In this document: piece by piece, positions 5,609 through 47,170 of the stretch
How positions within the stretch are numbered: position 1 is the first letter of the stretch
How the letters are laid out: every line of letters starts with the position of its first letter
Source: Heptranchias perlo
Lineage: Eukaryota
DNA: 64,000 bases
NCBI RefSeq assembly: GCF_035084215.1
Contig: NC_090347.1
Coordinates: 25,606,001 to 25,670,000 of the forward strand
Reading direction: 5' to 3'
Made by a program: the position numbers and the translations under genes
The notes under the pieces: generated by a model
What the model saw: the letters and a program-made list of their open reading frames with translations, nothing else
Told to the model about the DNA's origin: nothing
Database searches by the model: none

Positions 5609-6330
5609 ATGGGGGCCGCCATAGCTGCAGTCATGACCTCCTCGGAGGACGAACAGCATCATCAGCCTCGCCGGCCATGCCGTCCACCTCTGACACGTGG
5701 AGCTCCACAACACAGTGCTGTGACACATCCACCTGCAGAGCAGGAGGGAGGGCAACTGCAGAGAGAGATGTGTCGCAGAAGGCACTACCCTCACCACAGG
5801 GTCTACAACTTGCAACAGAGCAAGCGGGTGCTCTGCTCGCAAACTGGAGGCAGCAACAAAGCTGAGGTTTACCAAAAATAACCACAAATGCACAAAACTG
5901 TCACAATAAATCATACACATTAATTGTTACTGAAGGAATTAAAAACCATGGTGAAATTTAAATGAAAACAAAAAAAAACAGCATATACAGAAATCGGTAG
6001 GAAAGAAGCACAAAACAGAAAGAGTACAGAAACAACTGTTAAGCACAACATCAGTCGGATGCCCAAGACCGAGGCTCAGCTTCCTGGATCTCTCTGAGGA
6101 GCAGTGCACATGGAGGCTCAGAGTCACTCGACATGTAGTCGTGGACATCAGCAGACTCCTTGATGCCGAGCTGCTCCCGGCTGGCCCGAGCACCTTCTTC
6201 TTACCTGTCGCTGTCAAAGTCACCGGTGCCCTCAACAGCTTCTCCTCCGGATCCTTCCAGGGTGCCAGGGGACATCGCCGGTGTCTCTCAGTCGTCTGCA
6301 CAAATGAGATCTGCAAATACACCTACACCC
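5609..6330 (+). pseudogene. Harbinger transposase N-terminal fragment (HARBI1-like), disrupted
   Basis: RRHYPHHRVY|RPRLSFLDLSEEQC...LPVAVKVTGALNSFSSGSFQ...GDIAGVSQSS; broken by the 5803-6065 insert; DDE core missing. Confidence 0.8.
5803..6065. repeat. ~260-bp segment, copy 2, inserted in the Harbinger transposase
   Basis: Splits the reading frame ...gggtctac|agaccgagg...; homologous to 4172-4425. Confidence 0.95.
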
Positions 6331-6535
6331 ACTCTGCAGTGACACAATGGGTGGCATCAGGTGTGGGTCTTCATGGTGATCCTCAGGAAAGGGAATTATT
6401 GCACAAACCAGACAAGATTTGCAAAGATGTGGCAGTCGTGGTGATAACAAATTTTTATGTTTTTTTTGCAAAACAAATGAAAGTAAATCAAAAACATGAC
6501 ATTTTGTCTGACACCCTTGTGCATCCCCTTTGCTC

Positions 6536-8371
6536 TCACAAAACCTTTGCCTTGTGTTTACGGGAACCCCTACGTGGTGCTACCCCAGTGGCTTCAGCAG
6601 AGGTAGTGGCAGGTTGCTTTTGTCCATGCCCTGACCGATGAGATGCTTTGCACGGACGCCCTCTGGGTTTCGATGCCCGTGAGAGCCTCTCCAAAGACTG
6701 CTCCACCTGCACCTGTGCAGGGGCAGACTCGGCCACCTGGAGAGGAGGCAGCATTGCGGGTATTGGTTGAGAGGGGGGCAATGGATGAGACGTGGGAGCG
6801 CTTTGAGTGGCGTCCCCACTTCCATGTCCCCTTTCACCATCATCCCTCTCCTGGCCCAGGCCCACATCACTTCATCCACCCTACTGGACGACAGTTTGGA
6901 AGACTTGTGTGAAGCCTTGGAAGGCCAGTTGTAAGGTATCTGTCAGCCTGTTTAAGGCGCAGAATGTTGCTCACCCTTAATCCGAACGGCTATTGTCAGG
7001 GCCTGAATGGACTCATTGTTGAACCGTGCAGACATTCCCGCACCTATCTGCGACACTACCTCAGAGATGCCTTCACGTCCCTGTGACACTATCTCGGAGA
7101 TACCCTCATGTACCTGTGCCACCGTTCCACCCATGCAGGAGTTAGACTCCTCCATTCTCTGTACGATTGTGGAGAGTGCGCGTGGCAACTGTTCCAGTAC
7201 CTCGGCAATGTGCTGCTGGCCCTCGATGACTCTCCTTTTCAAGGCTGGCCCCCAGGATTCAGCATCTGGGTCCAGCTGAGCAGAGCCTGGACAAGAGTGC
7301 TCCCACTGACACGGACTCTCCATGGCTACCCCTGCCACCAGGGTCTGCTCGTGCTCACATGTGCATGGTGACTCACCATGTGCAAGCCCAGCTAAGTGAG
7401 GACGGGGACCCACCGAAATGTGTGTATCTGCGCTGGTGGATGGCTGGCTCAGATGTGACGATGCCCCCTCAGAGGCCGGCAGGTCCTCTGAGGAATTGCC
7501 CTCTGCAGCCACGGCGGTCGCAGATGGCCCTGCAAGAGAACAGAAAGCAATATTAAGCGTGTGGACAGATGTTGAGGTGCTGCAGATGCCAAGTGATGCT
7601 AAGATCATTCGCTATCATGAGTGCTGAGTGTTAGATTTCTGTCACCAGCCGCTTGTGCGCTCCCAGTCAAGGCATCTGCCACGGACAGGCACTCCAGCTT
7701 GCGGCTTATTTCCATTGCCTGCTGCTTCGTGTCCGTTAGGACCACCTGGTGAGGCAGGCCCCCTCCGGTCCTTGCCCTCTCCCGGGCATTCTGGCATCTC
7801 TTCTCCTATCAAGGCAAAACACAGAGAGGCGTTATTGAGTGCTGGTTGCATAGTAAACCGCTGCATGCATTGGTGTGGGTGGGGGTGAGAGTGAGGGAGA
7901 TGCATGGGAGGGTGTGTGTGAGACATAGCCATGAGATTGTATGAGGATTGGGTTGCGTGGTAGTGTGCGAATGGGAACTGGGGCGGTGAGTAAGTGCAGG
8001 CAAGGTGAGGATGATGGTAGAGTGGATGTGAGGAGTGATGCGAGAGCATTGTGGTGGCAGTGCAGAAGGAGTTGTGTGGTGGTGGAGGTGATGTGGAAGA
8101 CGGAGTGTGGGAGAATGCGTAAGTATACTCACTTTGGCTGACCTGGTTAGCTCATTAAAGCGCTTCCTGCACTGGACCCAGGTTCGGCACACATTGCCGC
8201 TGCTGCTGACCTCCTTGGCCACCTCCAGCCAGGCCTTCTTGGTGGCAGAGCGAGGCCACCTCCTCCCATCAGATGGGAACAGAATTTCCCCCTCCTCTTC
8301 ACCCTATCGAGCAGCACCTGGAGTGAGGAGTCAGAGAACCTTGGAGCAGCCTTGCCTCTGGCCTGCTCCAT
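6536..8371 (-). pseudogene. Harbinger Myb/SANT-like DNA-binding protein gene (multi-exon, frameshifted)
   Basis: MEQARGKAAPRFSDSSLQVLL...AWLEVAKEVSS...RTWVQCRKRFNELTRSAK|gtgagt (first exon 8133-8371); further minus-strand ORF segments at 6952-7608 and 6536-6879. Confidence 0.8.
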
Positions 8372-8664
8372 GCTCCAAAATTGGCTCTTTGCTGCAGGAG
8401 AAGCATTGGAGGACTGCTCCTTTAAATAGGGGGTCCTCCTGCTGACAGACTGTGATGCGGGTGCGCAGTGGCCCACTGCACAGGTCTGGAACGGGAAACC
8501 CGGAAGCACACGTAAGTACCTTCAATTAGGCTGCGATCACGTGCGGAGCACCCCAAATTCACTGGGCGCGTTACCCACGCACCCAGTCGACCCCCCGCTG
8601 CCAACCCGCCTCCCTTCTAATATCGGGCCCAGGGTTTCTGGCTGGGTACTAGCAGGATAATAAA

Positions 8665-29685: not shown

Positions 29686-31377
29686 ATGACACGTCTAAAG
29701 GGGAGACCTCCCAGGATTGGGAAGAACAGTTGAACCAGTTAATGGTAGGAAAATATTAGGACTGGGCGGTGACGATCGCCAGTCCAAATTTCAAAGGAGG
29801 TCAGACCTTCTTTGAGCACAATAATACAAAGGGAAAAATGAAACAAAAAAAATTTAAATATTTTCTGATGGCAGCCTGTTACTCCGAATTAATGAGCGAG
29901 CGAGCATTAACACACAGTCAGGGTCAGACCCAAAACCAATTGCAGTTTGATTTAGACAAGCTCCGGAATCAGGTTAAAAATTTGCAAAAAGAAAATGAGG
30001 AATTTCGTAGTGATAAAAGATTGCACACTCTCCATATGGCCTCTATTATGACTGCAGTCGAAGCAAGTAATCAAAAATTACACCGAATGCAGGAGCAACT
30101 AGATGAGTCCACAAGGGACCGCTGTGCCCTAGAGGAAAAATCAGCCCTCAAGATCATACAACAGTCTCACCAGCGGGAAAAATACGATAAAACGGATCAT
30201 ACCCACTGTCGTCAAGAAATAGAAGTATTAAAGTCACAATTATGCTCACACAGAGGCATAATATGCTCTTTCTCCAACGGAGGCGGAGAGGGTATCGACT
30301 ACTTAAGTCTGGCCGAGACGGCCCAGAACTATGAGAGGGACCGATCAGGAGAAGGGGACTACGGCCCCCCTGACCCGTCATGGTACGATCCCCCGCCACC
30401 CTATTGAAACAATAAAGGTCCTACTGCCCCACAGGATGGGCTTGCTGCCCCAGAGGAGCCGCCACCCCCACTACCCATGAACCCTATGGTCACTGTTCAG
30501 ACACAGGAAAGGATCGACGGTTAAGCAGTAGACGCTGTGCCCAACGGACCCATCAATTATGCCACCCCTTTTACTCTCTCCCAATTGAATGATATTGCCA
30601 AAAACGTACCCAAGTTCAATGGCAAGATTAATTTTGAATTATGGAAGGCCTCTGAGACTCAGGGACTAGATGAGGGAGAGCTGAGGAAACTAGTGACTTT
30701 GTGTTTGGGACCTGTTATATTCGGGGCCATGCCCCAAACCCAGAGAACAGGGCAGGGTACCATAGTTAAAATTGTGGATCGCCATTAAGGAGGTGGCAGG
30801 AGTTAACAGCAAGGATCCCGTTATGGAACTAGCAAACTTTAAACAGGGTGACGAAGAACACCCCCACGCTTATGCGGAATGCTTGTGGGTGATTTTCTGT
30901 AACCTGATGGGAACATTGAACTGCGACAATCTGGATGATGGTCCTCATGCCACCTGGTTTAAGTCCCTCATTTCCCATGCCTCCGATTCCGGTAAAAGGG
31001 CATGTAAGCTCTTCGACCCTACCGACGACACTCATAATGAGGCCTGGATTTTAAGGTGTATGACCAGGGCTTGGCAGGACGATCAAAATCAATCCTCTCT
31101 CCAACCAAAAGATAAAATCCACGCTTTCCGCTCAGGCCCAGATAGAAATGACCCGCCAGCGTGGAGGACTGAGGGATCTCCAAGGTATTCGGTAGCAAAC
31201 CAGGGAGATAGGGGATATGGACCACTAAGGGGACCCTGTTATAACTGCGGAAAGATGGGACATTGGCAAAGGGAGTGTCAGGCGCCAAAAAGTAACCGGT
31301 CTGGCGCTGTGGGATGCTCCGGGCGAATGGCACCCTTCCATGAGCAACCGGCACTCGAGCCCGGGGGCCAACAATGA
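29686..31377 (+). pseudogene. gag: gag of element 2 (coiled coil, PPPY, capsid with MHR-like motif, one CCHC knuckle); start uncertain, stops and frameshifts present
   Basis: ORFs 29769-30407, 30537-30788, 30772-31377; DPPPPY; FKQGDEEHPHAYAECL; CYNCGKMGHWQREC at 31237-31278. Confidence 0.88.
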
Positions 31378-32947
31378 CGGGGTCCAACCTCAGAGGTCGT
31401 GTGCAAGGCAGGATGTGACAATCATGGACGGCCTAGAGTCTCAGGTGTCGTAAGAGGTCGCGATACCACATTTTTATGGGACACAGGCGGATCCAGAACA
31501 TGTCTGGGAAACCAGCACCCTCTCTCGCCCAACGACTTAACTAATCAAGAAATTCTCCTTTGTGGCTTCACCAGTCATGGGCAGACCGCTACAATCACTA
31601 AGCCATTGGAGATTCAATTGGGAAGTTTCAAACTTAAGCATGCCTGCCAGTCAGTGCCACAGATGCAGGCGGAATCGGCAATAATTGGTATTGATTTCAT
31701 GAGAATATATAATTTGGCTTATGACCCAGCAAAGCGATGTATTTGGAGAACGTGCAAAACTTGTTTTGACGGGTTAATACCCACGGGGACGTATGACGCG
31801 TGCGTATGCTGCATGAAAACTTTTACTTTTGTTCCTTCTGCCACAACAGACGACCCGGAAATACAAGATATTTTAATCCAAAACTCAAATGTTTTTGCCA
31901 CCCACAAACACGAGTGTGGCCGGATGGCCGGACCGGTCTCAATCATGGGACCCGAACCCCCGCCCCAGAAGCAGTATAAAATTCCCGTAGAGGCAGAAAA
32001 GGACTTAGACAATAATATTCACAGTCTCTTGAATCAAGGCGTGCTCCGACCCATTGCTTCTACCAATAACTCACCCATTTGGCCTGTTCAAAAACCCGAT
32101 AAGTCCTGGAGAATGACTATAGATTACCGAGCCTTCTGTGGCACCCACTGTTGCCACTGCCCCAGAGACCACTTCAAAACTTTCCCCAACTGCAAAAATC
32201 TTTACTGTCCTGGACATCAGTAATGGATTTTGGTCCATACCCTTAACAAAAGAATGCCAGTACAAATTTGCTTTTACTCACAAGGGACAGCAGTACACTT
32301 GGACCCGGTTGCCTCAAGGTTTCCACAACAGCCGCTCAATATTCTCAAACATACTGGCAAATAGTTTGAAGGGATTTTCCCAGCCCTCAGCACTCGTTCA
32401 GTATGTTGATGATATCCTCCTCCAAACTGACACCATGGAGGAACATAAGGTCCTGTTACAGGAACTATTTAAAACCCTCCACAAGATTGGGGTAAAGGTG
32501 AACCCTAAAAAGGTGCAGATTGCAAAACCCTTTGGGAAAATGGGCTCCTTCCATATGCACCATGTCATGTTGGACGTGGGGGAGGACGATACTGAAGGCC
32601 CAGCCACCGCTGGCCTCCCTGTGCCAAGGGCTCTCGAACCAGCAAACATAAATAGGTCTGGCTCAGACCCAGAAAAGTCGGAGGGGGAAACGGGGTCCAG
32701 CACTGAATTGGGATCTGATCAATTGGGATCCGACTCTGACGATCTGACTGAAGACCTTGCCCAGGGATTACAGAGGTTGTTTTTGGAATCTCCTAGGGTG
32801 GCCCCTCGAACCCCGTCTTTAATCCGACCTGTCAACTGGACTAGAAACCATTCTCTACCCCCGCCCAGTCCAGGACAACCCAAACGATTGCATCGAGCAT
32901 CAGAAAATAAGAGCAGTTGCTACCCTGATCTTTATTTTTCTTTCTAG
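31378..32947 (+). pseudogene. pol: pro-pol of element 2: aspartic protease + reverse transcriptase; RNase H and most of integrase deleted near 32530
   Basis: FLWDTGG (D at 31480), IIGIDFM; NSPIWPVQKPDKSWRMTIDYR, LDISNGFW, LPQGFHNS, YVDD (32402-32413); one frameshift near 32135. Confidence 0.95.
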
Positions 32948-32964
32948 GTAACTGATTATTGCTC

Positions 32965-35110
32965 ATGGAAATCCCAGTAGCCACCCTTCTGGGGTACTGT
33001 GGTCTGGTGTTTGGCTGTATCATCCTCGCTGAGAACTCAGATGTAACTGTTATCGCAGATGGACGGAACAGTCAGAACTGTGCCCAAGACAACAATGCAG
33101 GTTTCCATGCACCTACCAATGGCAACAATGAGTGCAGTTGTAGCAGCCAAGGAAAAACCTGCTATGAGACGGCAACTGAAACTCAACTGAACTTTGTATG
33201 TATTGCTTGTACGGGAAAAGATGTTAAGGCTATAGTATGGATAGCTATGCAGAACACAGGGGACACCCACAGGGTTCTATCGGGGGGCAACTCCTGTTGG
33301 TTCAGAGCATGAGATGAATTGTACTAAGATAGATAAACAACTGTGTTGCAACATAAGCAAGACAAGCACCTCCTTACAGATTATGGTTGGATGTAGCAGC
33401 AATTCAACTGTAAGAAACCTAATCAGTAATCCACGAAAGAGCTTAAAACCAACGTGCTTGTGTAAACACCAAGGAAAGCTAGTGGTTCAGGTGTTACAGA
33501 CACCTACTACCCCCGAGTCAACTACCCCACTCATTGTTCAGACCACCACCCCGATCCCTACGACCCTGGTTCCAGTTTGGGACTGCTCCGAACACGAACC
33601 GGGACCCAAGGGAGGAGTAATATTAAGAAACACGACCAAAATCGTTTCTGATAATATACAATATGAATTAATACCTATAGTACTGAATATAATCGATGTA
33701 CAATTACCTGATTGGTGCCCGGAGGGAACCAAAAGATTGTATCAGGACTTGACTTCGATGTTGCTCAAGGGAGAGATACGAGGGAAGCAGGGAAATGAAA
33801 CAAGGACAGCTAGGAAAAGGAGGAAGAGAGGGTTACTGAATGATGCAGGGACAGTCTATGGAGCAGGAATGGTCACTGTAAATACTCCAGATATAACTAA
33901 TTTGAACTCCAAGATTAAAATCTTAACCCAGCAAGTCAAAACGTTATTGGAGGAACTGTATAATAATCTAAGACAAGAGTCACAGGCAGGACAGGAAAGT
34001 ATAGGGATCCAAACACAACAGGTGAAGGTCTGAGAAGGACATGCACGGACTATTAATCAACTTATTAACACAGCCAAAAAGGCGGCGAACGGAACCCAAC
34101 AACAAACACTGTGCATGACATATGGCAATTGGATGCTGGACCAGCTGAGAGAAAACTTAATGCTGGCAAAATGTGAAGAAGCACCCATTTGGATCAACAA
34201 TACTGAAATCCGGGGTCTGATAAAGCAGAATGTTCCTGCTACTATCAGTGACTGTGAACTACTGAAACTCAGCAGGGTATGGTTCAACGAGGAATGTACG
34301 GGCTCCCGTGGAAGTACTGCTGTAGGGATGGTGATAGGAGTCCCCATGATAGGACACCAGGAAGGAATGCCATTATTGAGGTCCAAACCATAAGCACTAT
34401 ACAAAAAGGAGTGTGGGTGGCCGTGGCAAGAATGAGGCCATATGCTGTGAAGCAGAACGGTACTCTAGTGGGAACTGCATTGGGACAATGTGCCACTACG
34501 GAAAGAACAGTAATATGCCCATACAAAATTTACCCAACCCGCACCGCGCGATGCGGATTTAAGGGAAATACGTCCATGAATTGCTCCTTGATCATGGAGA
34601 ACGCGATTCACAAACCTATCACTCGAAGCGCTTATATGGGTGATGGAACATATTGTTTTACCACCACCGAAGTTAGTTACCGTTATGGGAATAAGGACTG
34701 CCCTATCCAAAACCCAACCTTCTGCACGCACCCCCTGATACCGGTGAGAATAGGAAATGAAGAAATTATCAACATCCAGAGGCATGCAACTGTTAATCTT
34801 AATATGTCAGTAGACCTGAAGAATCGCTTGACAAAATATTTCACAAAAATCGACATCAACATCCAGCTAGAGGAGGAACATATAACGGAAATTAGACATA
34901 AGCTTGATCTTGTTCATAAGATCTACGAAAGGGTGGAAATGAATACCCAGGACATTGACCAAAAGATTAAACAAATCAAAATCAATACTTGGTGGGGCGA
35001 CCTTTGGAATTGGGGCGAAAATGTCAACATACACCCCTGGGTGAGACTCGTGTCCCACCTGATTGTAATTACGATCATGCTGGTGTTGACTTTCATTATT
35101 AGCGAAGTGC
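32965..35110 (+). pseudogene. env: env of element 2: F-like class I fusion glycoprotein with N-terminal Cys-rich and Thr/Pro-rich extension
   Basis: Signal peptide MEIPVATLLGYCGLVFGCIILA, RKRRKR furin site (33812-33829), fusion peptide GLLNDAGTVYGAGMVTVN, heptads, Cys-rich block, WWGDLWNW, TM; lesions near 33310, 34031 and 34370. Confidence 0.85.
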
Positions 35111-35124
35111 CAATGAAGTGCCAA

Positions 35125-36026
35125 TTAATTTTGTCCCAGATTATTGTCTCCAAACTTTTTCCCACCTCAGGGGTGTAACATTTGCAATCCTCAGTCCTCT
35201 GGTGCCACCCCCATATCTAAGAAGAATTGGAAGATTGTGGCTAGAGCCTCTGCAATTTCTACCCTGACTTCCCTCAGGAATCTAGGATGCATCCCATCTG
35301 GACCGGGTGACTTTCTGCTTTGAGTATTGCCAACCTTTTAAGTGCCTCCTCTTTATCTATTTTTATTCTATCCAATATCACTACTACCTCCTCCTTTACT
35401 GTTGCATTGGCAGCATCCTCTTCTCTGGTGAAGACTGATGTGAAGTATTAATTTATTACCTCAGCTACACCCTCTGCCTCCACAAGATCTCCTTTTTTGT
35501 CCCTAATTGGCCCCACCCTTCCTTTGACTATGCTTTTACTATTTATATGTTTATAAAAGGCTTTTGGGTTCTCTTTTATGTTAGCTGTTAATCTATTCTC
35601 GTACTCTCTCTTTGCCCCTCTTATTTCCTTTTTTAGATCTCCTCTGTTCTTAGCTTGGTTCTCTACTGTATAACAAAGCTTAAATTTGTCATAAGCCTCC
35701 TTTTTCTGTTTCATTTTAATCTCTATATCTTTAATCATCCAGGGAGCTCTAACTTTGGCTGCCTTTCCTTTCCCTCTCATGGGAATGTGTTTACTCTGTA
35801 CCCAAACCATCTACTCCTTGAAGGCCTCCCATTGTTCAATTACTGTTTTGCCTACCAATTTTTGATTCCAATCCACCTGGGCAAGATCCATTTTTAACTC
35901 ACTGAAATTAGCCCTCCTCCAGTTAAGTATTTTTAGGCTTGATTCTTCCCTGTCCTTTTCCATAACTGTTCTAAATCTAATGATATTCTGATCACTGTTC
36001 CCCAAATGGTCCCCCACTGAAACATG
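35125..36026 (-). mobile_element. CR1 ORF2 segment, probably the upstream part of the CR1 split by element 2
   Basis: HLGNSDQNIIRF, NPKAFYKHINSK, SPGPDGMHPR; homologous to ~57850-58815. Confidence 0.9.
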
Positions 36027-37581
36027 CATTATGTATGAAATTAGCCATCCAAGTGTCTGTACTAAGCTTCAAAACACACATCTGCATGAGCTAGAACTGA
36101 GTTTATGGAATTTTTATTTGACTAGCTCTGAATAATTAATCTCCTCTTCAGGAGCATCTGGAAAGCACTAATAGGATACAAATTTCGGGTTTGTTATCTC
36201 ATCTTACCTTGTAATTGTATAAACGCTCCTAACGTACGGATATCCAGCACCAGACTGGCCTGTTGCATAGGCAAGGAGGAATGTGTTAAACAATCTCACT
36301 GTTAAGGATCATTACTTACAACACTCCTTGGGCTCAATGGCACCATGAGAATGGTATCAGGGTCCAATAGGCTACACCTGATTCATTGTACCTCATTATG
36401 ATACAGTTATGTGACCATCAAAGTTAGCTTATATTAAGACTAAGACTGGGCTCAGACTCCTGCGTGCTTTTAATGGAGCTTTAACTTAAATCAGAGACCC
36501 TGTTATTTCACAAATCTGTTAGTGTTAAGGTTTGGCTAGATATTCTTATACAGCATTTGCTATTTGCTGAAAGGAGGCAGATACATCTATTGCATGAAAA
36601 ATAGTCTAGAATTTTAGCAAATGAAAAAAGCAGATGAAACAAGAGAACAATGTGTATTAAGCTTTACAAGGTACACCACCTTTGCACATAATCTATTTGT
36701 ACAAAACAGGGATAAAGTAAAAAATCATTGATGCTTTTATAAAATGTATTTATATATGTTATTCACCAAAAAATTATACCCAGATCTCAGTCAAATCAGA
36801 TTCTACAATAAAATTATATAATTATTCATTTGTATCAAATGGCTCCAACTATATTGCAGGACAAAGTAGAAAATCAATTTTACAGTCGATACTAATGTGT
36901 AAATATAACTGTTCCTTTGCGCAATTTTGAAAAGATCTTCTCTCTACTTCAGTTTTCCAACACAGCCTCCAGAAACCACACTTCCTCTTTTACTGAGTGA
37001 GAAGTATAGTCCAGCACACAAATTTCTTCACAATATTTCTGTAATCAAACAACAGGAAGTATATTTTCAAAGTATAACTGGGCCTTAGTTTTTCTTCCCC
37101 TTTTACAATGTGTTGTGATGTCGCACACTGATTAATTTACTGTCCCAGCTGTGAAATAATGATCTCCTTGAATGACACCAGTCAAGTGTGCAGCCTTCTG
37201 TAAGGGGACCCATAGCGCTAGTAGACAATCAAAATGTGCCAATGTTTCTTTGCAGACAAAACAAATAGTGAAGAGTTCAGCACAGTGCAATTGGTCAATC
37301 AGGATTACTGTCCTAGCCAGTAACTGCATCAAAAAAATTAGTTGTGGTTTCCAGTTACTCATTGGAGAGAAAAGTGACAGCTTGAAATAATCTGTGTGGT
37401 GTAAATTCAGCTTTCATTATTTGCATTATAAAAAAGGACATGGCTGGGCTGTACATTTGAAGCATCATGTCGCACAATGTTCTTAAAATAGTCCATGACA
37501 TTATTGCTGACGTCAGTGCTTTCTTCAGAAATAGAAATAAGAATTACTCATTTCAATGGCTATTAACCATCAGCCTCCTGA

Positions 37582-37598
37582 TCACTTGGCACTGCAAC
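37582..37598 (-). CDS. Gene B putative last coding exon (GCSAK* if phase 1)
   Basis: Acceptor ttttttcttttaacag|G, closing a 78-nt intron from the donor at 37676; AT-rich UTR-like sequence follows. Confidence 0.55.
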
Positions 37599-40500
37599 CT
37601 GTTAAAAGAAAAAAGGAAATTATGAGAACAATGCCAAAAGTCCTTAAAAAAAATAAGCTAGCATTTGAAATCATACCTAGAATCATAGAATCATAGAATC
37701 ATAGAAGTTTACAACATGGAAACAGGCCCTTCGGCCCAACATGTCCATGTCGCCCAGTTTATACCACTACGCTAGTCCCAATTGCCTGCACTTGGCCCAT
37801 ATCCGTCCATACCCATCTTACCCATGTAACTGTCCAAATGCTTTTTAAAAGACAAAATTGTACCCGCCTCTACTACTGCCTCTGGCAGCTCGTTCCAGAC
37901 ACTCACCACCCTTTGAGTGAAAAAATTGCCCCTCTGGACCCTTTTGTATCTCTCCCCTCTCACCTTAAATCTATGCCCCCTCGTTATTTTATAGACTTCT
38001 ATAAGATCACCCCTAAACCTCCTACTCTCCAGGGAAAAAAGTCTCAGTCTATCTAACCTCTCCCTGTAAGTCAAACCATCAAGTCCCGGTAGCATCCTAG
38101 TAAATCTTTTCTGCACTCTTTCTAGTTTAATGATATCCTTTCTATAATAGGGTGATCAGAACTGTACACAGTATTCCAAGTGTGGCCTTACTATTGTCTT
38201 GTAAAACTTCAACAAGACATCCCAACTCCTGTATTCAATGTTCCGACCAATGAAACCAAGCATGCTGAATGCCTTCTTCACCACCCTATCCACCTGTGAC
38301 TCCACTTTCAAGGAGCTATGAACCTGTACTCATAGATCTCTTTGTTCTATAACTCTCCCCAACGCCCTACCATTAACGGAGTAGGTCCTGGCCCGATTCG
38401 ATCTACCAAAATGCATCACCTCACATTTATCTAAATTAAACTCCATCTGCCATTCATCGGCCCACTGGCCCAATTTATCAAGATCCCGTTGCAATCCTAG
38501 ATAACCTTCTTCACTGTCCACAATGCCACCAATCTTGGTGTCATCTGCAAACTTACTAACCATGCCTCCTAAATTCTCATCCAAATCATTAATATAAATA
38601 ACAAATAACAGCGGACCCAGCACCGATCCCTGAGGCACACCGCTGGTCACAGGCCTCCAGTTTGAAAAACAACCCTCTACAACCACCCTCTGTCTTCTGT
38701 CGTCAATCCAATTTTGTATCCAATTGACTACCTCACCTTGGGTCCCGTGAGATTTAACCTTATGTAACAACCTACCATGCGGTACCTTGTCAAAGGCTTT
38801 GCTAAAGTCCATGTAGACCACATCTATCTTCTTGGTTACTACATTTGGGTATCTGGATCCTCTCCTAACTGTTGAAGAAAAAGCAAAAAAAAAAATCATT
38901 ATTTCTGGTACACAAAATTTGATTTGAAATAACATTTTTGGCTGTGAAAATTTGCAGTTGCTTATTTTTTCTAGTTCCAAAACTCCTAATCGTGTATAAG
39001 AAAGACAATACTTTCTGTACAAATGTGATAATATTGACACTTATAAACAATGCCTATATTTGCCCTAATTAACAGTCCAATAATTTCTTTTACTCCTTTG
39101 TCCAACCATAGAAATGAGATCCAGACTAAGTGTAATCACTCCTCCCATATATAACATTTCATTCCTTCTATTTGAGTAGGAGGGTATGGCAATGTAGCGG
39201 TTATGTAGCTGAACTGGTAATCCAGAGAACATGAGTTCAAATCCCACCATCGCAGTTTGAAAATTTGAATTCAGTTTTTTTAAAAAGCTAGTACCAGTAA
39301 AAAAGGTACCAAGAACCATTGTCATAAAAGCCCAACTGGTTCACTAATGTCTTTTCGGGAAGGAAACCTGCGATCCTTGTGACTCCAATCCCATGCCAAT
39401 ATGGCTGACTCTTAATTGCCCTCTGAATTAGCATAGCAAGCCACTCAGTTGTATCAAACTACAAAGGAGAAGGCCCACCACCACCTTCTCAGGGCAACTA
39501 GGGTTGGGCAATAAATGCCGGCTTTGCCAATGATACCCCACATCCCGAGAATGAATTTTTACAAAGTTCCAGTTCCTTCTTAAGAAATGTTTCCTTCCTC
39601 CCTTTCCCCCATTTGCCTTTCCCTGTACCAAACACCATAACTGGGCTTGGAGCACCACAGATTATTTATTCCCACACCTCTCCCAATGCTGCTCTACGGC
39701 TGGATATGGCTCAGTAGAAAGTGCACCAGAGCAGGTCACCATGTCTCACACCTGATGCTTTTCTTCCTTCTCTTGGTGGGGGTGGGATGGGGGAGGAAAA
39801 GCATGGCTTGTATTGGTACATTATCTAGCCCCTCTTCACCCAAATACTTTATCCAACTACTGCATAAGGAAATCTGAAGACTGTAACCAATTCGGCACCA
39901 TTCAGAGCTTTGGACTCCTCAAGATTTCACTTAAGCAAACTATTTGTTTCCTGCTCAGTGAGATAAGGGTACTTGACATCCACTGGTTCAGCCAAAAGCT
40001 TATCTAAATCACACAACTCTGGGAAGCGAATTAGAATGAGAGACAGAATATGAAGCCGTTCAGAGTGCTTCAGATTCTGCTGCATCATTCTTTTTGGAAA
40101 GCCTTGGAACTTGCATAGTTGGCATATGATATGGTTAAGCTGAATTATCAGGTTGCCAGATTATGGGCTGTATTCAAAAAAAAAAGCTAACCAAAAGTAT
40201 TTTAAAACATAAGATTACGTCACAATTCATGTAACAAAGACTCAAAAGTTTCAAAAGAAATCAGACACATTTACATAACCATCGTACCTGGATACCATCT
40301 TCTCTTGAATCGCAAAACCGCCAAGATGACTATTCCAGATAAAAGTGCTCCAACAATGACAAAAACTGCTGTGAGAACTTTATTCTTTTTCCCTTCACTT
40401 TGGGGATCATGATTAGGTAGATCCAAGACTGGAACGGAAAATTAAAATTAATTAATTGTAAATTCCAGCTTCAACCTTTGTGTGCATAAAAATGTCATTT

Positions 40501-43103
40501 ATTTCTACTCTTTTATGACTATATTAATTAGCAATAGATATACTGAAGTTCAAGCAACACTGTAAGGACAAGGACAGTTAAATAAGAAGGCCCACAACCT
40601 TCTCAGGGCAAATAGCCATGGGTATTAAATATGGCCTTGTAGCATTGCCCACATCTTGAGAACAAATAAAAACAAAATAAATTCTTTAAACAGCCATTTT
40701 CTGAGATTTAAAAAAATAAATACCATGAACTTACTTTGAAAATCTTTCTGCACCTCATTAAACCCCTGTTCCACATTCCACACAGCACAGGTATAACTGC
40801 CTTCCAGGTCGCTTTCCATTACTTCGATTTGAAGCATGCTGGTGATCTTGAACAGCCCCTCTGTGGTTCTTATACTACTAGTTTTAGACTTGGATGTGAG
40901 ATTACTCATTCCATTGACAAACCAGTGAATCTGAGCCAGTGGGTATCCAGTTGTTACACAACTGAGGTTTGTTGTTCTCATTGTTCTTGTGAGATTTGGA
41001 AATAAGGTCACTTTTGGCAAACTGTACGGAGCTAAAAAAAAATGATTGCACTGTTATTAATGTAATGAGAGAAAGAGCTGTAGAAAAATAGAGGGGCAGC
41101 TTTTATACTTTCTCCCCCACCCAGCAAAAAATAACAACCATTCTTGGTAAATAATAAATCCCAGACTTATGACATTAGTTTGGTTGAATTTAGGTTACCT
41201 TAGGTTTGGGCTGTGATAGAGGAAAACATTTAGTGGTACCAATTTGTCACTTTGAGTTAATTTCTGAAAACCTGAATTTGACACTTTTCGGGAAGCTTCA
41301 GATTCTGGTCCACCTTTCTTTTTATCATTTTTGTCTAATTTAGAAAATAGCTTGTACATACATCTTGCATATTTTGTACGAATGTTTGGTTCCTCTAGCA
41401 ATCCAGTGATGGATTTGCACTGATGTTAATGTTTATTTAGTCTGGATAGTTTCATAGAATCATAGAAAGGTTACGGCATGAAAGGAGGCCATTTGGCCCA
41501 TTGAGTCCTCACCGGCTCTATGCAAGAGCAATCCAGCTTGTTCCACACCCCCGTCCTTTCCCTATAGCCCTGCAAATGTTTTCCTTTCAAGTACTTATCC
41601 AGTTCCCTTTTGAAGGCCATGATTGAATCTGTCTCCACCACCCCCTCGGGCTGTGCACTCCAGATCCTAACCACTCGCTGTGTAAAAAAAGTTTTTCCTC
41701 ATGTCACCTTTGGTTCCTTTGCCAATCACCTTAAGGTAAGAAATGAAGCAGGATTTTCGAAACCCCAAAATCTACCATAATTTAATCTGGAACAGTCTAA
41801 CGCCCATGTTATCTAACACACTGTTTCAATGTTTTAACAACACTTAAAATGGAGAATAAGAAATTGCTTTCTTAAACTGTAATGCCTGGAGTAACAGTAA
41901 TTCATAAAAAAAATATACTGTGGAGATCCCTCTCCACAGCACTGTATAGCAGCATACAAAATCATGTTATTGAAAGGGAGTTTATCACTTTTCTTTAATG
42001 TTGCTGCTGATTGAAAATAGATATAAGTATTAGCTTGACTCAGTTAGGACCAATCCCACTTCTGAGTCAGAAAGCTGTCCCACTATGCACTTGAGTACAT
42101 CAACTTGCCTGGCACTTCAATACTGTACTGAGGGAGCATGCATTGTTGAAAATGTCATCTTTCAGATGAGACATTAAATTGAGACCCCCAGCTACCTGCT
42201 CAGGTGGACAGAAAAGATCTCGTGGCACTATTCAAAGATGAGCAGAGTGTTCTCCAGGTGTCCTGGCCAACATTTGTTGTTCAACCAACACCACCAAAAT
42301 CAGATGAACTGATCAATCATTTAGTCGTTTGCTCTTTGTGGAATTTTGCCATATGCAAGTTGGCTGGTGAGTTTGCTCAAATAACAACAGTGGCTGCACA
42401 TCAAAGCAATCCCCATCTGTAATATGTTTTGGGATGTTCAGAGGACATGAAAGTTGCTATTTAAATGCACGATCATTCTTTCTTTCCTCTCTAAACATGA
42501 CTCTCATTATAACATGCTGTTTGCATAACTAACATGTCAAGCTTTTTAGGATTAAAATAATACTGGAATTTGTTGCCAATTAGAGGCAATCAATATTTTA
42601 CAAGGAAAAATAGCACAGAAAGTATACTTTAACCCACCTTTAACCATCAGTGTGATGTCTTGATTATCGTAACCAACATCAGTTTCCAAATAATAGTTAT
42701 ATGTCCCAATATCTGACACTTGTGTTTTCTGGATTACCAGTGATATATCTTTTGAATCTTGTTGAAGTAATTTAACTCGACCATTAGAACTTTTGTTTGA
42801 GTTAAACATAAGTGTTTCTTCTCCATATTTTTTCAGTTGAATGTAATCAATTGTTCCCTCCTCTTTTGATTTGATTCTGCATGGTAGTTTAGTGTCTTCA
42901 TTAAAAATTCCTGTCACTGAATGTTCACAGTCCAAACTCATAAACCCTGAAAAACAATCATTTTCATTAATTTATATTATCTCAATGACAATCGGTAATG
43001 AATGAGCTACATACTGAGAAGCACTCCAGTACTTACTTTGTGCAGAGGGTGTGCTTGTGCATAAAATGACATAAAGAAGACTTATTGAACGGTGTGAACC
43101 CAT
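37582..43103 (-). CDS. B7-family type I membrane protein, PD-L1/PD-L2-like (gene B): join(43103-43037, 42946-42638, 41031-40735, 40428-40288, 38868-38824, 37598-37582) in the pre-insertion model
   Basis: All junctions GT-AG and phase 1; leader-IgV-IgC-TM-short cytoplasmic layout; IgC motifs APYS.P, CxxxGYPLA.I.W, RTTEGLFKITSML, YTCAVWN. Confidence 0.85.
37680..38823 (-). mobile_element. 5'-truncated CR1 LINE inserted in sense orientation at the exon/donor boundary of gene B
   Basis: DVVYMDFSKAFD..PQGSVLGP..FADD; (ctatgatt)n tail; TAG on both sides (38824-38826, 37677-37679). Confidence 0.95.
38824..38868 (-). CDS. Gene B cytoplasmic exon (VRRGSRYPNVVTKKI)
   Basis: Acceptor tttttgctttttcttcaacag|TT; in phase with the TM exon; runs directly into CR1. 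Confidence 0.75.
39182..39560 (+). mobile_element. tRNA-headed SINE
   Basis: Same family as 1367-1757. Confidence 0.85.
40288..40428 (-). CDS. Gene B stalk/transmembrane exon
   Basis: LDLPNHDPQSEGKKNKVLTAVFVIVGALLSGIVILAVLRFKRRWYP; ccag| and |gtacg; 141 nt. Confidence 0.9.
40735..41031 (-). CDS. Gene B IgC exon
   Basis: APYSLPKV...LSCVTTGYPLAQIHW...YTCAVWN; 297 nt, tag| and |gtaagt. Confidence 0.95.
41453..41733 (-). mobile_element. CR1 3' end (intronic)
   Basis: catagaatcatagaaagg tail; FKRELDKYLKGK. Confidence 0.9.
42030..42488 (+). mobile_element. Deu-domain-type SINE (SacSINE1-like)
   Basis: tRNA-like head, gtcatctttcagatgagacattaaa..caggtggac..aaagatc core, gctatttaaatgca tail. Confidence 0.75.
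42638..42946 (-). CDS. Gene B IgV-like exon (non-canonical)
   Basis: LPC, GRVKL, DISLVIQKTQVSDIGTY, ITLMVK; 309 nt, tcag| and |gtgggt. Confidence 0.92.
43037..43103 (-). CDS. Gene B signal-peptide exon (exon begins at 43121)
   Basis: gaaATGG context with an in-frame upstream stop; MGSHRSISLLYVILCTSTPSAQ A|gtaagt; 90-nt intron to IgV. Confidence 0.85.
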
Positions 43104-44326
43104 TTCCAGAATTCAATTTATCTGCTGATTTAAGGACAATACAGAAAAATCATTAAAACTCAGGGATCTAATCAAACCTGATTTCACTTTTCTTGTGAGT
43201 TGAGTTTTGTCAGGAATTTCAAAGAGCAACATATCACTGAACTAAAAATCACATAAGATACGTTTGCATTGCTAGAAATTTTTGAATAATCAGAATTATT
43301 TTACGTGTTACTGTTAAAAATAACAAGTACATTTTATAGTGTTTTCCTACAATTCTCTCAGCAAGAACACCAGAATCTGTGAACTGACAACAATATACAA
43401 TGAAAACTGCAATAACTCCATATTTCATTTTTTATTAGTACTTCTTATTTCCTTTTTCACTTCTCCTCTGTACTTTCTATATTCAGCCTGGTTCTCACTT
43501 GTATTATCAACCTGTCATCTGTCATCTGTCATACGCCTCTTTTTTCTGCATCATTTTACGCTCGATCTCTTTTGCCATCCAGGGAGCTCTGGCCTTGGTT
43601 ACCCTACATGATCTAAATTGACGGAAAATTGTAGTTTTTAACCATATCCCACATAAATGAATCTTCCCTGATTCAAAGCTTTAAATAAAATAATGAAGGA
43701 TCAGTTGCTACTGCCACAGAATTACCTGCCTGTTCAACATAAATTCAACAAATTGGCTGCTGCTCTCCTTAAAATGGCCAAATGATCTGTTTACAAAACA
43801 GCATTTAAAATATAATCTGATGCTTCTGCCAATCCTCTATGTTAATGGCGTCCTGCTTTTAGGTTCATTTGTTAATGAAAGAATTTTCATTTATGCAGCA
43901 CTTGATTACATTTCTATCACAATGAATGACCTTTGAGCTGTAGTTACTGTTGTGTAGGCAAATACAGTAGCCAAAATTGCACACGGTGCTGCAAATAGAT
44001 GAATGGCCAGTTCATTTGTCTTTGATGGAGGAGATCAGGAGAATTCCCCGATCTTCTTCAAGTACAGTAATGCTAGGGGATCTTTTATATCTACCTGAAC
44101 CAGTAGAGAGGGATCTGTTTAATGTCTAAGAGGACAGCACCTCTGACAATGCACCACTTCCTCAGTACTGCATTGAATCAGCAGTCCAGATTACGTGTTC
44201 ATAGTCTGGAGTGGGGATGTTACCACACTTCTGACTTACAGGCAAAAGTATTTCCTCCTGAGGAGAGCTGACAGTAAAACAATGTTAATCAATGCTGTCA
44301 TGTATCAGCTGAAAACCAGAAGCTAA

Positions 44327-44708
44327 GAAAGAAAGATTTCCATTTATATAGCACCTTCCACGACCTCTGAATGTCCAAAAGCACTTTACAGCCAATAAAG
44401 TACTTTTGAAGTGTTGGCACTATTGTAATGTAGGAAACATGGCAGCCAATTTGCACACAGCAAGGTCCCACAAACAGCAATGTGATAACGACCAGATAAT
44501 CTGTTTTTTTAGTGATATTGGTTGAGGGATGAATTTTGGCCAAGACACCGGGGAGAACTCTGCTCTTCTTCGAAATAGTGCCATGAGATCTTTTATGTCC
44601 ACTTGAGGGAGCAGACGGGGTCTCGGTTTAATGTCTCATCCGAAAGACCACACGTCCGTCAGTGCAGCACTCCCTCAGTACTGGACTGGAGTGTCGGCCT
44701 AGATTTTG
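44327..44708 (-). mobile_element. Deu-domain-type SINE (SacSINE1-like); an older copy lies at ~43880-44270
   Basis: Well-preserved core cggatgagacattaaaccgaga..gtggacataaaagatc..atggcactatttcgaagaagagcag. Confidence 0.85.
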
Positions 44709-46147
44709 TGAAGCTCACCTAAAATTGGGCCTCGGACTTCATCAACATATTGCCGGTGAGCTGCCAATCGGGCATCTAGAGACAGCTCGTCAATTCCACG
44801 AGGACAAAGTTGGGCCGGCTGCCTCCTCAGCAGTGGCCCTCAGATAGGACCTGGATGATGGGGGGGAGTGGGGGGAAGAGGGGATTAGGAGGGATGGGGG
44901 AGGTGATTAGAGGGGAGGGGGGCTATCGAGAAGGAGGGATGGGGGCAATGGGAAGGAAGGGTGAACCAGACTTATGTTCCGTGCTGTAACTTTATTGCAA
45001 TAAAGTTACAGCACATTGCAATCATATTATATATGAGTGGCATCACTCTTTTGGGTAAGTTTTGAAGCACTGCGACAGAACACATGATGCAATTATGGGG
45101 CAGAAATTGCTCGGAGCACCGAACCAACAGGGCAAATCCACTTTAAGGAAACAAGCATCAGACCAACTGCGATTGGCTCTTAGTTACACGTCTTCATGAA
45201 AAGAACACTACATTGATAACCACCTCACGTTAGAGATCTGGAATATTGGTAGCAGTAAGAGGTATTATAGTACCCGTCATTAATTTCCCACTCACATCAT
45301 TACTGAGTGGGGTAAGGCTCAGCTGTTCACCCAAATGCATAAATGCAATGGGACTCACCAGGCTCTGACTACCAGTGACATTTTCAACTGCAGAATAAAG
45401 CTGTTGGGATCATCTGCTCTCTTCTGTCATTAAAATTGAAAAGCTATTCTATCGAATACCTGAAGTATTTTTTCTTACGTTTAAAACTTATGGTTTAAAA
45501 CTGGGGACATCTATAGTCCGGGTGATGCTTGGTGCTAATGATGCAGGGCTACAATGATCCCACACTGCACGACAAAGCCATGGCAGCAGTTCAGCACATC
45601 TTAAGTCATTGAGGAGGCCAATGTCCACATTGCGCCAACACAAGAAGTAACTGGGGCATAAATATGTTGCTGTATCTGGCAGGAGCAACAATACAGATTC
45701 CGATGTAACCACTGCACTTCAATGAATTGTACTGAAGTGATTTTTTTTAGCATTCCACCTTGCAGTAGGAGTCATTTGACAGACCAGCAGTGAGATCCCT
45801 GGCTGCTTTTTCTCCTTTCTAGTTCCAGGAATACTGAGGCTAATTGTACTGAAAACTTTAAAACCGTTTACTGCATTTATTTCTGATAAACAAATACTTC
45901 TGTCTCCCCCCCCCACCCCGCCATCCCTTTGCCTTTCCTCAATTATTTCGCCAGGGGCAAGAGTCAGTTGCTGCTTGCAAACAGCCGGGCTTTTTAACCG
46001 TCAGCATTGAAAATAAAGTTAAGATAATTGAAACCTTTCGTATATTGCAGTGAAAGTAACCGCATGTCAGATGCTTATTTGTTTGAATTACTATTTTCAT
46101 GCCCAAAGTTTTGGGGCTCATTTATCTCTGATTTTAATCTAGCAACC

Positions 46148-46456
46148 NNNNNNNNNNNNNNNNNNNNNNNNNNNNNNNNNNNNNNNNNNNNNNNNNNNNN
46201 NNNNNNNNNNNNNNNNNNNNNNNNNNNNNNNNNNNNNNNNNNNNNNNNNNNNNNNNNNNNNNNNNNNNNNNNNNNNNNNNNNNNNNNNNNNNNNNNNNNN
46301 NNNNNNNNNNNNNNNNNNNNNNNNNNNNNNNNNNNNNNNNNNNNNNNNNNNNNNNNNNNNNNNNNNNNNNNNNNNNNNNNNNNNNNNNNNNNNNNNNNNN
46401 NNNNNNNNNNNNNNNNNNNNNNNNNNNNNNNNNNNNNNNNNNNNNNNNNNNNNNNN
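46148..46456. other. Assembly gap (309 N)
   Basis: Run of N. Confidence 1.
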
Positions 46457-46549
46457 GTAACATTACTCTAAGTTTTCGAGTGTCAGACTGCACCTTTGTT
46501 CCAACCAAAATGCGGAGACCCAACCAGCTAAACACGAAAAGGGAGTTCA

Positions 46550-47170
46550 AACTGACCCAGGAAATGCCACCATTGAAAATCCGAGGCCTGGACAATTGTT
46601 ACGGATGACGCTGGGATCTCAGCACAGTTGAAGCCAAGCGCTGGGGTCCGTGGAGAGCGAGTGAGGCTGTCGGCTCGATCCACTGTCCAGTCTGGGAAAG
46701 CTGCAACCTTCAGTAACCTCGATACAGACAGTGAGACAAGGGTCGCCTGTTGCTCCTCCACTATCTCTCTTCACATCTGTGGTGTTGAACATGAACAGCT
46801 GGCTCGCCCGCTTTCCCCTCTCTTCCTTGTCTTTAAACTTTCTGTTTCGACATGAATGGGTAGCGGCCGAGTTGGCAAAGAGTTTCGATCGAAAAAAAAC
46901 CCAAATGTTTTCCAAGCTGTCAACGAACTTTCCCCACTGTTGGTGAAGTTGCAGTTAATGGACAGTTAATCCTAAACCTCCTTCTGAATGATCCAGGAAG
47001 TGCGAGGAATTGGTTACATTTTGACGTTCACTGCAGGAAAAACTGAAAGCAACGACGTGGGAAATAACCTAGCTTTGTGCAATATCAAAAGTCCCAATTG
47101 TTCAGTGGAGGAAAGCTCCAGTACCCTTTCTTTCCTGAGTGACTATTCAGTCGTACTTTCCCTTTATTAC
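46550..47170 (-). promoter_or_regulatory. Candidate promoter / non-coding first exon of gene B with NF-kB, IRF and ETS motifs
   Basis: Unique, CpG-enriched; kB-like 46925-46935 and 47153-47162, IRF-like ggaaaaactgaaagc 47036-47050, ETS caggaagtg near 46994; donor-like tgg|gtcagt near 46556. Confidence 0.45.

What the first reader, a model, noticed from the sequence alone, without database searches (positions are those of the whole stretch)
37676..38868. CR1 LINE inserted exactly at a splice donor fuses an RT core in frame to the tail of a B7/PD-L-like receptor
Removing 37677-38823 restores ...AAGAAGATAG|gtatga, a 45-nt exon plus donor and a 78-nt intron. With the insertion (TAG on both sides) the exon reads VRRGSRYPNVVTKKI-DVVYMDFSKAFD...PQGSVLGP...FADD...QRDL*: 164 LINE-derived codons in frame, ended by a TGA (38330-38332) where CR1 normally has Gly. 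The donor survives behind the LINE tail. Possible outcomes: a chimeric immune ligand with an RT-derived cytoplasmic domain, an NMD target (stop ~650 nt before the last junction), exon skipping, or a polymorphic null allele.
Basis: partly seen in the sequence, partly recalled or inferred. Interest (0 to 1): 0.8.

Follow-up and report, generated by a model that had tools for sequence, protein, structure and literature searches.

The report
LINE fragment spliced into shark B7-tail
A LINE retrotransposon sits at the end of a small tail exon of a shark B7-family immune gene, and the RNA splices out of it after 54 or 64 bases, so the predicted protein gains an 18-21 residue retrotransposon peptide, likely a tolerated accident, instead of the long reverse-transcriptase fusion first proposed.

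Summary
The insertion is real, but its boundary and its outcome differ from the finding. A 5'-truncated, sense CR1 copy spans 38839-37677, not 38823-37677. Sixteen bases of the proposed '45-nt host exon' (VTKKI) are LINE, hidden by an 18-nt internal deletion. The host exon part is 27-30 nt. The open frame to TGA 38332-38330 exists in DNA (169 LINE codons). RNA contigs of all 4 runs laid (one sample) use the 38868 acceptor. Two of them show splicing out at family-native cryptic donors to the last exon: 38786 (X5) and 38776 (X8). No 37677>37598 join, exon skip or empty allele was listed. NCBI's automatic models encode exactly these two forms (310 and 307 aa). The predicted tail therefore gains 18 or 21 RT residues and the stop lies in the last exon, so NMD is not expected. 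The 38786 form keeps the conserved PSDQEADG end. The host is an elasmobranch B7-like gene, not the PD-L1 or B7-H3 orthologue. This is a known kind of event (exon elongation to a 5' splice site inside a transposon) and shows no sign of selection. A gained tyrosine motif (YMDF) is a low-odds lead.

The parts
46557..47096 (-). Exon 1 (5' untranslated) of the B7-like gene
   Evidence: RNA contig pieces and joint 43124-46557 in 4 of 4 runs
43037..43124 (-). Exon 2, ATG at 43103, signal-peptide region
42638..42946 (-). IgV exon
   Evidence: Pfam V-set E 2.6e-8; joints
40735..41031 (-). IgC exon
   Evidence: Pfam Ig_3, CD80-like C2-set; 100% identical to P0001
40288..40428 (-). Transmembrane exon, phase-1 donor
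38840..38868 (-). Host part of the small cytoplasmic exon (27-30 nt; VRRGSRYPN(V)); acceptor at 38868 used
   Evidence: joint 38868-40288 in 4 of 4 runs; single copy; homologue tails VRRES...
37677..38839 (-). 5'-truncated sense CR1 LINE copy, 1163 nt, 13 differences in 1122 sites from the majority of 29 siblings; 18-nt deletion after 38822, 60-nt deletion at 37988; stops at 38332-38330 and 38158-38156
38786..38839 (-). LINE part exonised in the 310-aa form: 54 nt, VTKKIDVVYMDFSKAFDK; donor AAG|GTACCG
   Evidence: X5 loose end maps to 38788-38801; P0014, P0013
38776..38839 (-). LINE part exonised in the 307-aa form: 64 nt, ...FDKVPH; donor ATG|GTAGGT
   Evidence: X8 joint 37596-38774 (cut +2), CT..AC; P0001
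38330..38332 (-). Private TGA ending the 169-codon LINE frame; intronic in both forms seen
37678..37706 (-). Octamer tail (TTCTATGA)x3 + TTCTA, behind a 3' hairpin
37599..37676 (-). Original 78-nt intron with the displaced donor GTATGA; the first bases (TATGATT) match the LINE tail unit
   Evidence: sequence; no RNA contig over 37602-37692 in X7
36000..37598 (-). Last exon: VAVPSDQEADG* (stop 37565-37563) or GCSAK* (stop 37584-37582), then 3' UTR; a second AG at 37592 is not seen used; the far end was not defined

Best explanation
A 5'-truncated sense CR1 LINE lies between the last bases of a 27-30 nt cytoplasmic exon and that exon's likely original donor, and the RNA splices from two donors native to the LINE (38786, 38776) to the last exon, so the predicted protein carries 18 or 21 RT residues in its tail, likely as a tolerated, fixed accident. 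Steps: (1) shown: position, family, truncation and both deletions. (2) inferred: target-primed insertion, probably helped by the TATGATT match between the donor and the LINE's octamer tail. (3) inferred: the old donor, pushed 1.16 kb away, loses to nearer donors of similar consensus match that 28 and 27 of 29 siblings also carry. (4) shown in contigs of one sample: both joins, with stops in the last exon. (5) inferred: translation, no NMD, and little effect because this tail is poorly constrained. The 38786 form keeps the frame of the conserved C-terminal PSDQEADG.
For: Joint 40288>38868 in 4 of 4 runs, with the contig running 73-77 nt on into the LINE. X8 joint 38776>37598. X5 loose end = 38801-38788, giving 38786>37598. 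X6 and X7 contigs begin at 37600, which fits an AG-ending upstream partner such as AAG|. In-silico joins equal P0014 and P0001 letter for letter; 5 of 6 NCBI accessions use 38786. Donor 9-mers are unchanged from the family in 28/29 and 27/29 siblings. None of 28 homologues carries the peptide; alignment shows a 21-residue insert in P0014. 9 of 15 parsed shark tails are 18 aa, the length a 27-nt exon plus the 37591 acceptor would give. Tails run from 8 to 20 aa across 23 parsed homologues. The tandem paralogue has the same plan: 42-nt exon, GTATGT donor, 82-85 nt intron.
Against: All RNA comes from one sample and one study, as contigs, and the runs' RNA label is a guess (spliced GT-AG joins support it). 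Contigs drop rare forms and give no isoform ratios. Only 2 of 4 runs show a downstream join directly, and 271 loose ends and 3934 pieces were not shown. NCBI models probably rest on the same data, so they are not independent. No empty site was seen in DNA: the pre-insertion exon length, 27 or 30 nt, and the original status of the GTATGA donor are inferred. No protein-level evidence.
Confidence: 0.85

Rival explanations
1. One reading: the exon runs through the whole LINE to the old donor at 37677 and gives a 450-aa protein with a partial RT tail, or an NMD substrate, as the main product.
For: The frame is open for 169 LINE codons. The old donor TAG|GTATGA scores 6 of 9 against the donor consensus, as good as the cryptic ones (5 and 6). 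The X6 and X7 contigs starting at 37600 would also fit TAG|. NMD would hide such RNA.
Against: No 37677>37598 joint is listed in 4 runs nor in X7 relaid. The gene is well covered and the joins seen use the near donors. No such protein appears in the 3-member cluster or in searches of 170-543 and 171-2000 aa. The two substitutions in the extra codons are both non-synonymous, followed by a private stop. The RT match lacks the first 69 profile positions. It remains possible as a minor, degraded form (my estimate 0.25).
Confidence: 0.04
2. The peptide has been co-opted: YMDF adds a second tyrosine motif 12 residues behind a host SRYPNV that fits the ITIM consensus, giving the protein new sorting or reverse-signalling behaviour, as with the gag-like tail of human B7-H6.
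For: Both forms hold YPNV and YMDF. SRYPNV fits (S/I/V/L)xYxx(I/V/L) as defined in PMC12151841. The 18-nt deletion, found in only 6 genomic copies against 10,892 intact ones, shortens the Y-to-Y spacing from 18 to 12. 0 substitutions in the 64 exonised nt. The 38786 form is in frame.
Against: 105 of 640 18-aa windows of a sibling ORF hold a YxxPhi motif. 0 of 64 is uninformative (about 0.7 expected at 1.16%). The donors are unimproved family sequence. The same deletion recurs in 5 unrelated copies. None of the 23 parsed homologue tails has such a motif in the part this exon encodes; the motifs found lie upstream, next to the membrane. The tail tolerates truncation in other sharks.
Confidence: 0.08
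3. Exon skipping or a polymorphic null allele: the insertion segregates or inactivates the exon.
For: Skipping would give a clean 276-aa product. Only one individual was examined.
Against: No skip joint and no empty-site joint in 4 runs, while contigs carry alternative letters at 4 sites in the 3' UTR, so a second haplotype appears to be expressed. 1.16% divergence corresponds to roughly 10^7 generations at the epaulette-shark rate, far longer than a neutral polymorphism is expected to last (inference).
Confidence: 0.03

Closest known systems
Transposon exonisation by exon elongation to an alternative 5' splice site inside the element (Sela et al. 2007, PMC2394776; Sela et al. 2010, PMC2911107; passages read)
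   Same: Acceptor from the host, donor from the element; CR1 is the main source of exonisations in chicken.
   Different: Here the element sits exactly at the donor, so no LINE-free form was seen. Those papers find 3.1-5.7% of transposon exons constitutive and 12.2% of those in-frame in coding sequence. The peptide is read in the ORF2 frame.
Human B7-H6 (NCR3LG1), whose intracytoplasmic domain is homologous to GAG polyprotein and holds ITIM, SH2 and SH3 motifs (PMC2715080, passages)
   Same: A B7-family IgV-IgC membrane protein with a retroelement-derived tail containing tyrosine motifs.
   Different: A gag-like domain there; 18-21 residues of a non-LTR RT here, in a different B7 gene, with no function shown.
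NCBI automatic models XP_067860320-325, 'CD276 antigen' isoforms X1-X3 of Heptranchias perlo
   Same: Identical proteins to the two forms derived here.
   Different: The names shown do not mention the LINE origin of the tail. The CD276 label does not mark orthology, since a closer B7-H3 match lies on C41.
Shark PD-L1 (PMC12151841, section 12 and supplement passages)
   Same: IgV-IgC-TM-short tail; PD-L1 and PD-L2 structures are hit at E 1e-10 to 7e-9.
   Different: The PD-L1 orthologue is L002 on C4, between PLGRKT-family and RIC1 matches; it is 34% identical to this IgC exon.

Membership tests
CR1 LINE | ORF2 with a reverse-transcriptase domain | tested here: met
   RVT_1 E 7.4e-25, partial
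CR1 LINE | 3' octamer microsatellite (PMC4316615) | tested here: met
   (TTCTATGA)x3, also at the ends of most siblings
CR1 LINE | 3' UTR hairpin | tested here: inconclusive
   long hairpin, -28.2 kcal/mol, z -2.1, 7 of 200 shuffles as good; covariation not tested
CR1 LINE | 5' truncation, high copy number | tested here: met
   starts mid-ORF2 at 38839; 10,892 exact 35-mer matches
CR1 LINE | RT phylogeny within the CR1 clade rather than L2 | not tested
   no reference LINE library on hand; the clade name rests on the tail and on recalled motifs (FADD, C-terminal RGDLIEVYK)
Exonisation by elongation to a TE-internal 5' splice site | Spliced RNA joining a host acceptor to a donor inside the element | tested here: met
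   (one sample)
Exonisation by elongation to a TE-internal 5' splice site | Orthologous empty site in DNA | tested here: inconclusive
   3 other-organism runs laid on the downstream flank; none reached the junction; 0 of 28 homologous proteins carry the peptide
Domesticated (exapted) TE peptide | Purifying selection or function of the peptide | tested here: inconclusive
   0 changes in 64 nt against about 0.7 expected; donors unchanged
B7 family | IgV + IgC + TM + short tail; closest solved relatives are B7 proteins | tested here: met
B7 family | Binds a CD28-family or other immune receptor | not testable with these tools
   no binding data
PD-L1 orthologue | Located between PLGRKT and RIC1 (synteny recalled); best match to published shark PD-L1 | tested here: not met
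   those genes and the PD-L1-like exon L002 are on C4, the window is on C26
CD276 (B7-H3) orthologue | Best genomic match to B7-H3 | tested here: not met
   by eye, L003 on C41 is much closer to the B7-H3 IgC shown than this gene is; no tree built

The most novel reading that the evidence does not exclude
A CR1 reverse-transcriptase fragment has become a constitutive part of a shark B7 ligand's tail and supplies a working tyrosine motif. With the host SRYPNV it forms a tandem YxxV-x8-YxxF pair whose spacing was set by the 18-nt deletion. This would be a second, independent capture of a retroelement peptide as a signalling tail in the B7 family, after B7-H6.
Probability: 0.08. Interest if true: 0.7.

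Novelty: new member of a known kind. Interest (0 to 1): 0.33.

Why it matters
It is a clean case of a gene absorbing an insertion at a splice donor: donors the LINE already carried rescue splicing and leave a short RT peptide in every form seen. Nearly all sampled copies of a family with more than 10,000 members carry these donors, so similar tails may be common in this genome's gene models. If the peptide's tyrosine motif works, it would parallel B7-H6 and show retroelements recruited twice for B7 tails. On present evidence it is more likely a neutral passenger in a weakly constrained tail.

Tried and rejected
Empty site in relatives: runs X9, X12 and X13 were laid on 36900-37692 at 80% likeness. 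X9 gave nothing. X12 gave one 44-nt piece. X13 gave a probable orthologous 3' UTR contig (36935-37074, 37380-37413) that does not align at the junction. No conclusion. An empty paralogue in the genome: both flanks are single-copy. TSD length as arbiter of 27 versus 30 nt: 19 of 29 siblings end within their loci and give crude candidates of 0-5 nt (11 with 2 nt or more, 8 with none), so it does not decide. Constraint on the 169 codons: 2 changes in 489 sites upstream of the stop against 11 in 633 downstream, but siblings show the same tilt (0.67% versus 1.10%), were picked by similarity, and both changes are non-synonymous; rejected. The 'siblings sharing gap' lines were a script error; redid them (18-nt gap shared by L037 only; 60-nt gap by 4, partly by 1 more). 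A source lineage for the 18-nt deletion: the 5 other exact copies share none of the 60-nt deletion and at most 1 of 12 private bases; rejected. X7 relaid showed no loose end at 37600, so donor ratios stay unknown. Naming the B7 subfamily: atlas search and literature gave no clear orthologue; Flajnik 2012 was not held. Five of 28 homologue tails were not parsed by my pattern. No structure or complex was predicted, as a short tail insert would not be informative. The scan's earlier findings had nothing by place or words.

Full report
Host gene. The minus strand carries a spliced gene: exons 47096-46557, 43124-43037, 42946-42638 (IgV), 41031-40735 (IgC), 40428-40288 (transmembrane), a small exon from 38868 and a last exon from 37598. 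Its IgC exon is 100% identical to P0001, which NCBI labels 'CD276 antigen isoform X2 [Heptranchias perlo]'; relatives occur in sharks and rays. Closest solved structures are B7-H3, PD-L1 and PD-L2. It is neither orthologue. An exon nearly identical to published shark PD-L1 (supplement passage of PMC12151841) lies on C4 between PLGRKT-family and RIC1 matches, and a B7-H3-like exon lies on C41. The window gene belongs to a tandem elasmobranch B7-like cluster on C26 that I could not name further.

The frame from 38868 is open to TGA 38332-38330, with 164 codons counted from D. All 29 siblings have G at 38332. The stop is 653 nt from 37677, and GTATGA plus a 78-nt intron follow the tail. The element has a partial RT domain, an octamer tail and a 3' hairpin, as described for CR1 in PMC4316615 (passages).

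The boundary is wrong. Siblings read ...FFEGVTKKIDEGCAVDVVYMDF. The window reads YPNVVTKKIDVVYMDF, so GTAACCAAGAAGATAG (38839-38824) is LINE, and 18 nt between two TAGATG repeats are missing. The intact 35-mer occurs 10,892 times in the genome, the deleted 31-mer 6 times, control 0. The other 5 continue into LINE upstream and do not share this copy's other marks, so the deletion recurs. The insertion is 38839-37677 and the host exon part is 27 nt (ending ...AAATG) or 30 nt (if TAG is a duplication). Family TSDs look short and blurred, so sequence alone cannot choose. Homologue tails favour 27: 9 of 15 parsed shark tails have 18 residues, the length that 27 nt plus the acceptor at 37591 would give. 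A ray isoform pair diverges after 'NQM', one ending 'V*' (P0030, P0051), which fits read-through of a GTN-stop donor such as GTATGA (inference; no DNA seen). The tandem paralogue has a 42-nt exon, a GTATGT donor and an 82-85 nt intron. So 'inserted at the donor' stands, with the 5' end 16 nt further up. The donor's TATGATT matches the LINE tail unit, which may have guided priming (inference from target-primed reverse transcription, recalled).

What is spliced. Four runs of one sample were laid. All 4 join 40288>38868, and the contig runs 73-77 nt on across the host-LINE junction, so the junction is no assembly artefact. X8 joins 38776>37598. X5 has 14 loose letters that map to 38801-38788, i.e. 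38786>37598. X6 and X7 start at 37600 without naming a partner. No joint 37677>37598, 40288>37598 or empty-site join is listed. Limits: contigs drop rare forms, give no ratios, and the tables were cut. Joining the exons in silico gives proteins identical to P0014 (310 aa, donor 38786; 4 accessions, plus P0013) and P0001 (307 aa, donor 38776; 1 accession). No 450-aa form turned up in two homologue searches or the 3-member cluster. Both stops lie in the last exon. The tail becomes VRRGSRYPNV-VTKKIDVVYMDFSKAFDK-VAVPSDQEADG or ...KVPH-GCSAK. The first keeps the end seen in other sharks (PSDQQADV, SSDRGADV). None of 28 homologues carries the peptide.

Mechanism and selection. Both donors are family-native (28/29 and 27/29 siblings) and match the donor consensus about as well as the displaced one (5 and 6 versus 6 of 9; crude score). 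The copy differs from the sibling majority at 13 of 1122 sites (1.16%; siblings 0.36-3.5%, chosen by similarity). At 7e-10 per generation (PMC10587355, passages) that is about 1.7e7 generations, a rough upper figure since the rate excludes repeats and some changes may come from the source element. With alternative 3' UTR letters at 4 sites and no empty-site join, the insertion is likely on both haplotypes and fixed. The exonised 64 nt have no private change, which is uninformative. The further codons carry two non-synonymous changes and a stop. Homologue tails range from 8 to 20 residues. A tolerated passenger is the best reading (0.85).

Most novel reading. Both forms hold SRYPNV, which fits the ITIM consensus quoted in PMC12151841, and the LINE-derived YMDF, a YxxPhi sorting motif (motif class recalled), 12 residues apart. 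Human B7-H6 has a gag-homologous tail with such motifs (PMC2715080, passages). But 105 of 640 windows of a sibling ORF hold a YxxPhi and nothing shows selection: 0.08.

Known or new. Exon elongation to a donor inside a transposon is described, and constitutive in-frame coding cases are the minority (PMC2394776, PMC2911107; passages). The two proteins are already in NCBI's automatic annotation. I found no paper on this insertion in searches for shark/CR1/LINE/exonization/genome (2 listed), CR1/exonization/LINE/splice (20 of 36 listed), species/genome (15 of 20 listed) and shark B7 terms; these were read as listings only. Passages of PMC13262535, PMC9659126 and PMC8303610 added nothing used here. 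Of PMC12151841 I saw the abstract, passages, section 12 and supplement passages, not the whole alignment file. Verdict: new member of a known kind, interest 0.33.

Noticed in passing
window 63253-55430 and L004:1-353 (- strand): Tandem B7-like paralogue (P0047, P0048, NCBI 'CD276 antigen-like'), 24% identical, same exon plan with a NAGNAG acceptor (LIG/LIVG-DPE). It found no homologue outside this species in one search.
   Followed up: partly
window 42638-42946; alignment A1: The family's IgV lacks the usual F-strand cysteine (YxYxL; F-strand Cys recalled as canonical) and has invariant C29 and C45 in 14 of 14 rows; an atypical disulfide is possible.
   Followed up: no
window about 29760-35175 (+ strand): Broken provirus-like element: zinc knuckle, retroviral protease (below cut-off) and RT matches in separate open frames, followed by long frames without Pfam match. 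Described only.
   Followed up: partly
window about 5900-8450: Myb/SANT-like frame at 8303-7812 in a GC-richer stretch, likely a Harbinger-type DNA transposon (recalled association).
   Followed up: no
L020 (G000:C40:10080384-10084242): An independent CR1 copy is 5'-truncated at the same base (GTAACC) as the window copy but keeps the 18 nt.
   Followed up: no
P0038 residues 1-47: A ray homologue's annotated N-terminus matches CR1 C-terminal sequence in the window: a second LINE piece in a gene model of this family, perhaps an annotation artefact.
   Followed up: no
window 37591-37598: Two acceptors 7 nt apart; homologue tails fit the inner one (37591), RNA contigs run unbroken through it and use 37598.
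   Followed up: partly
G000:C4:128.18-129.92 Mb (L002, L040-L042): PD-L1 exon lies 1.47 Mb from the PLGRKT-family match and 0.27 Mb from RIC1.
   Followed up: partly
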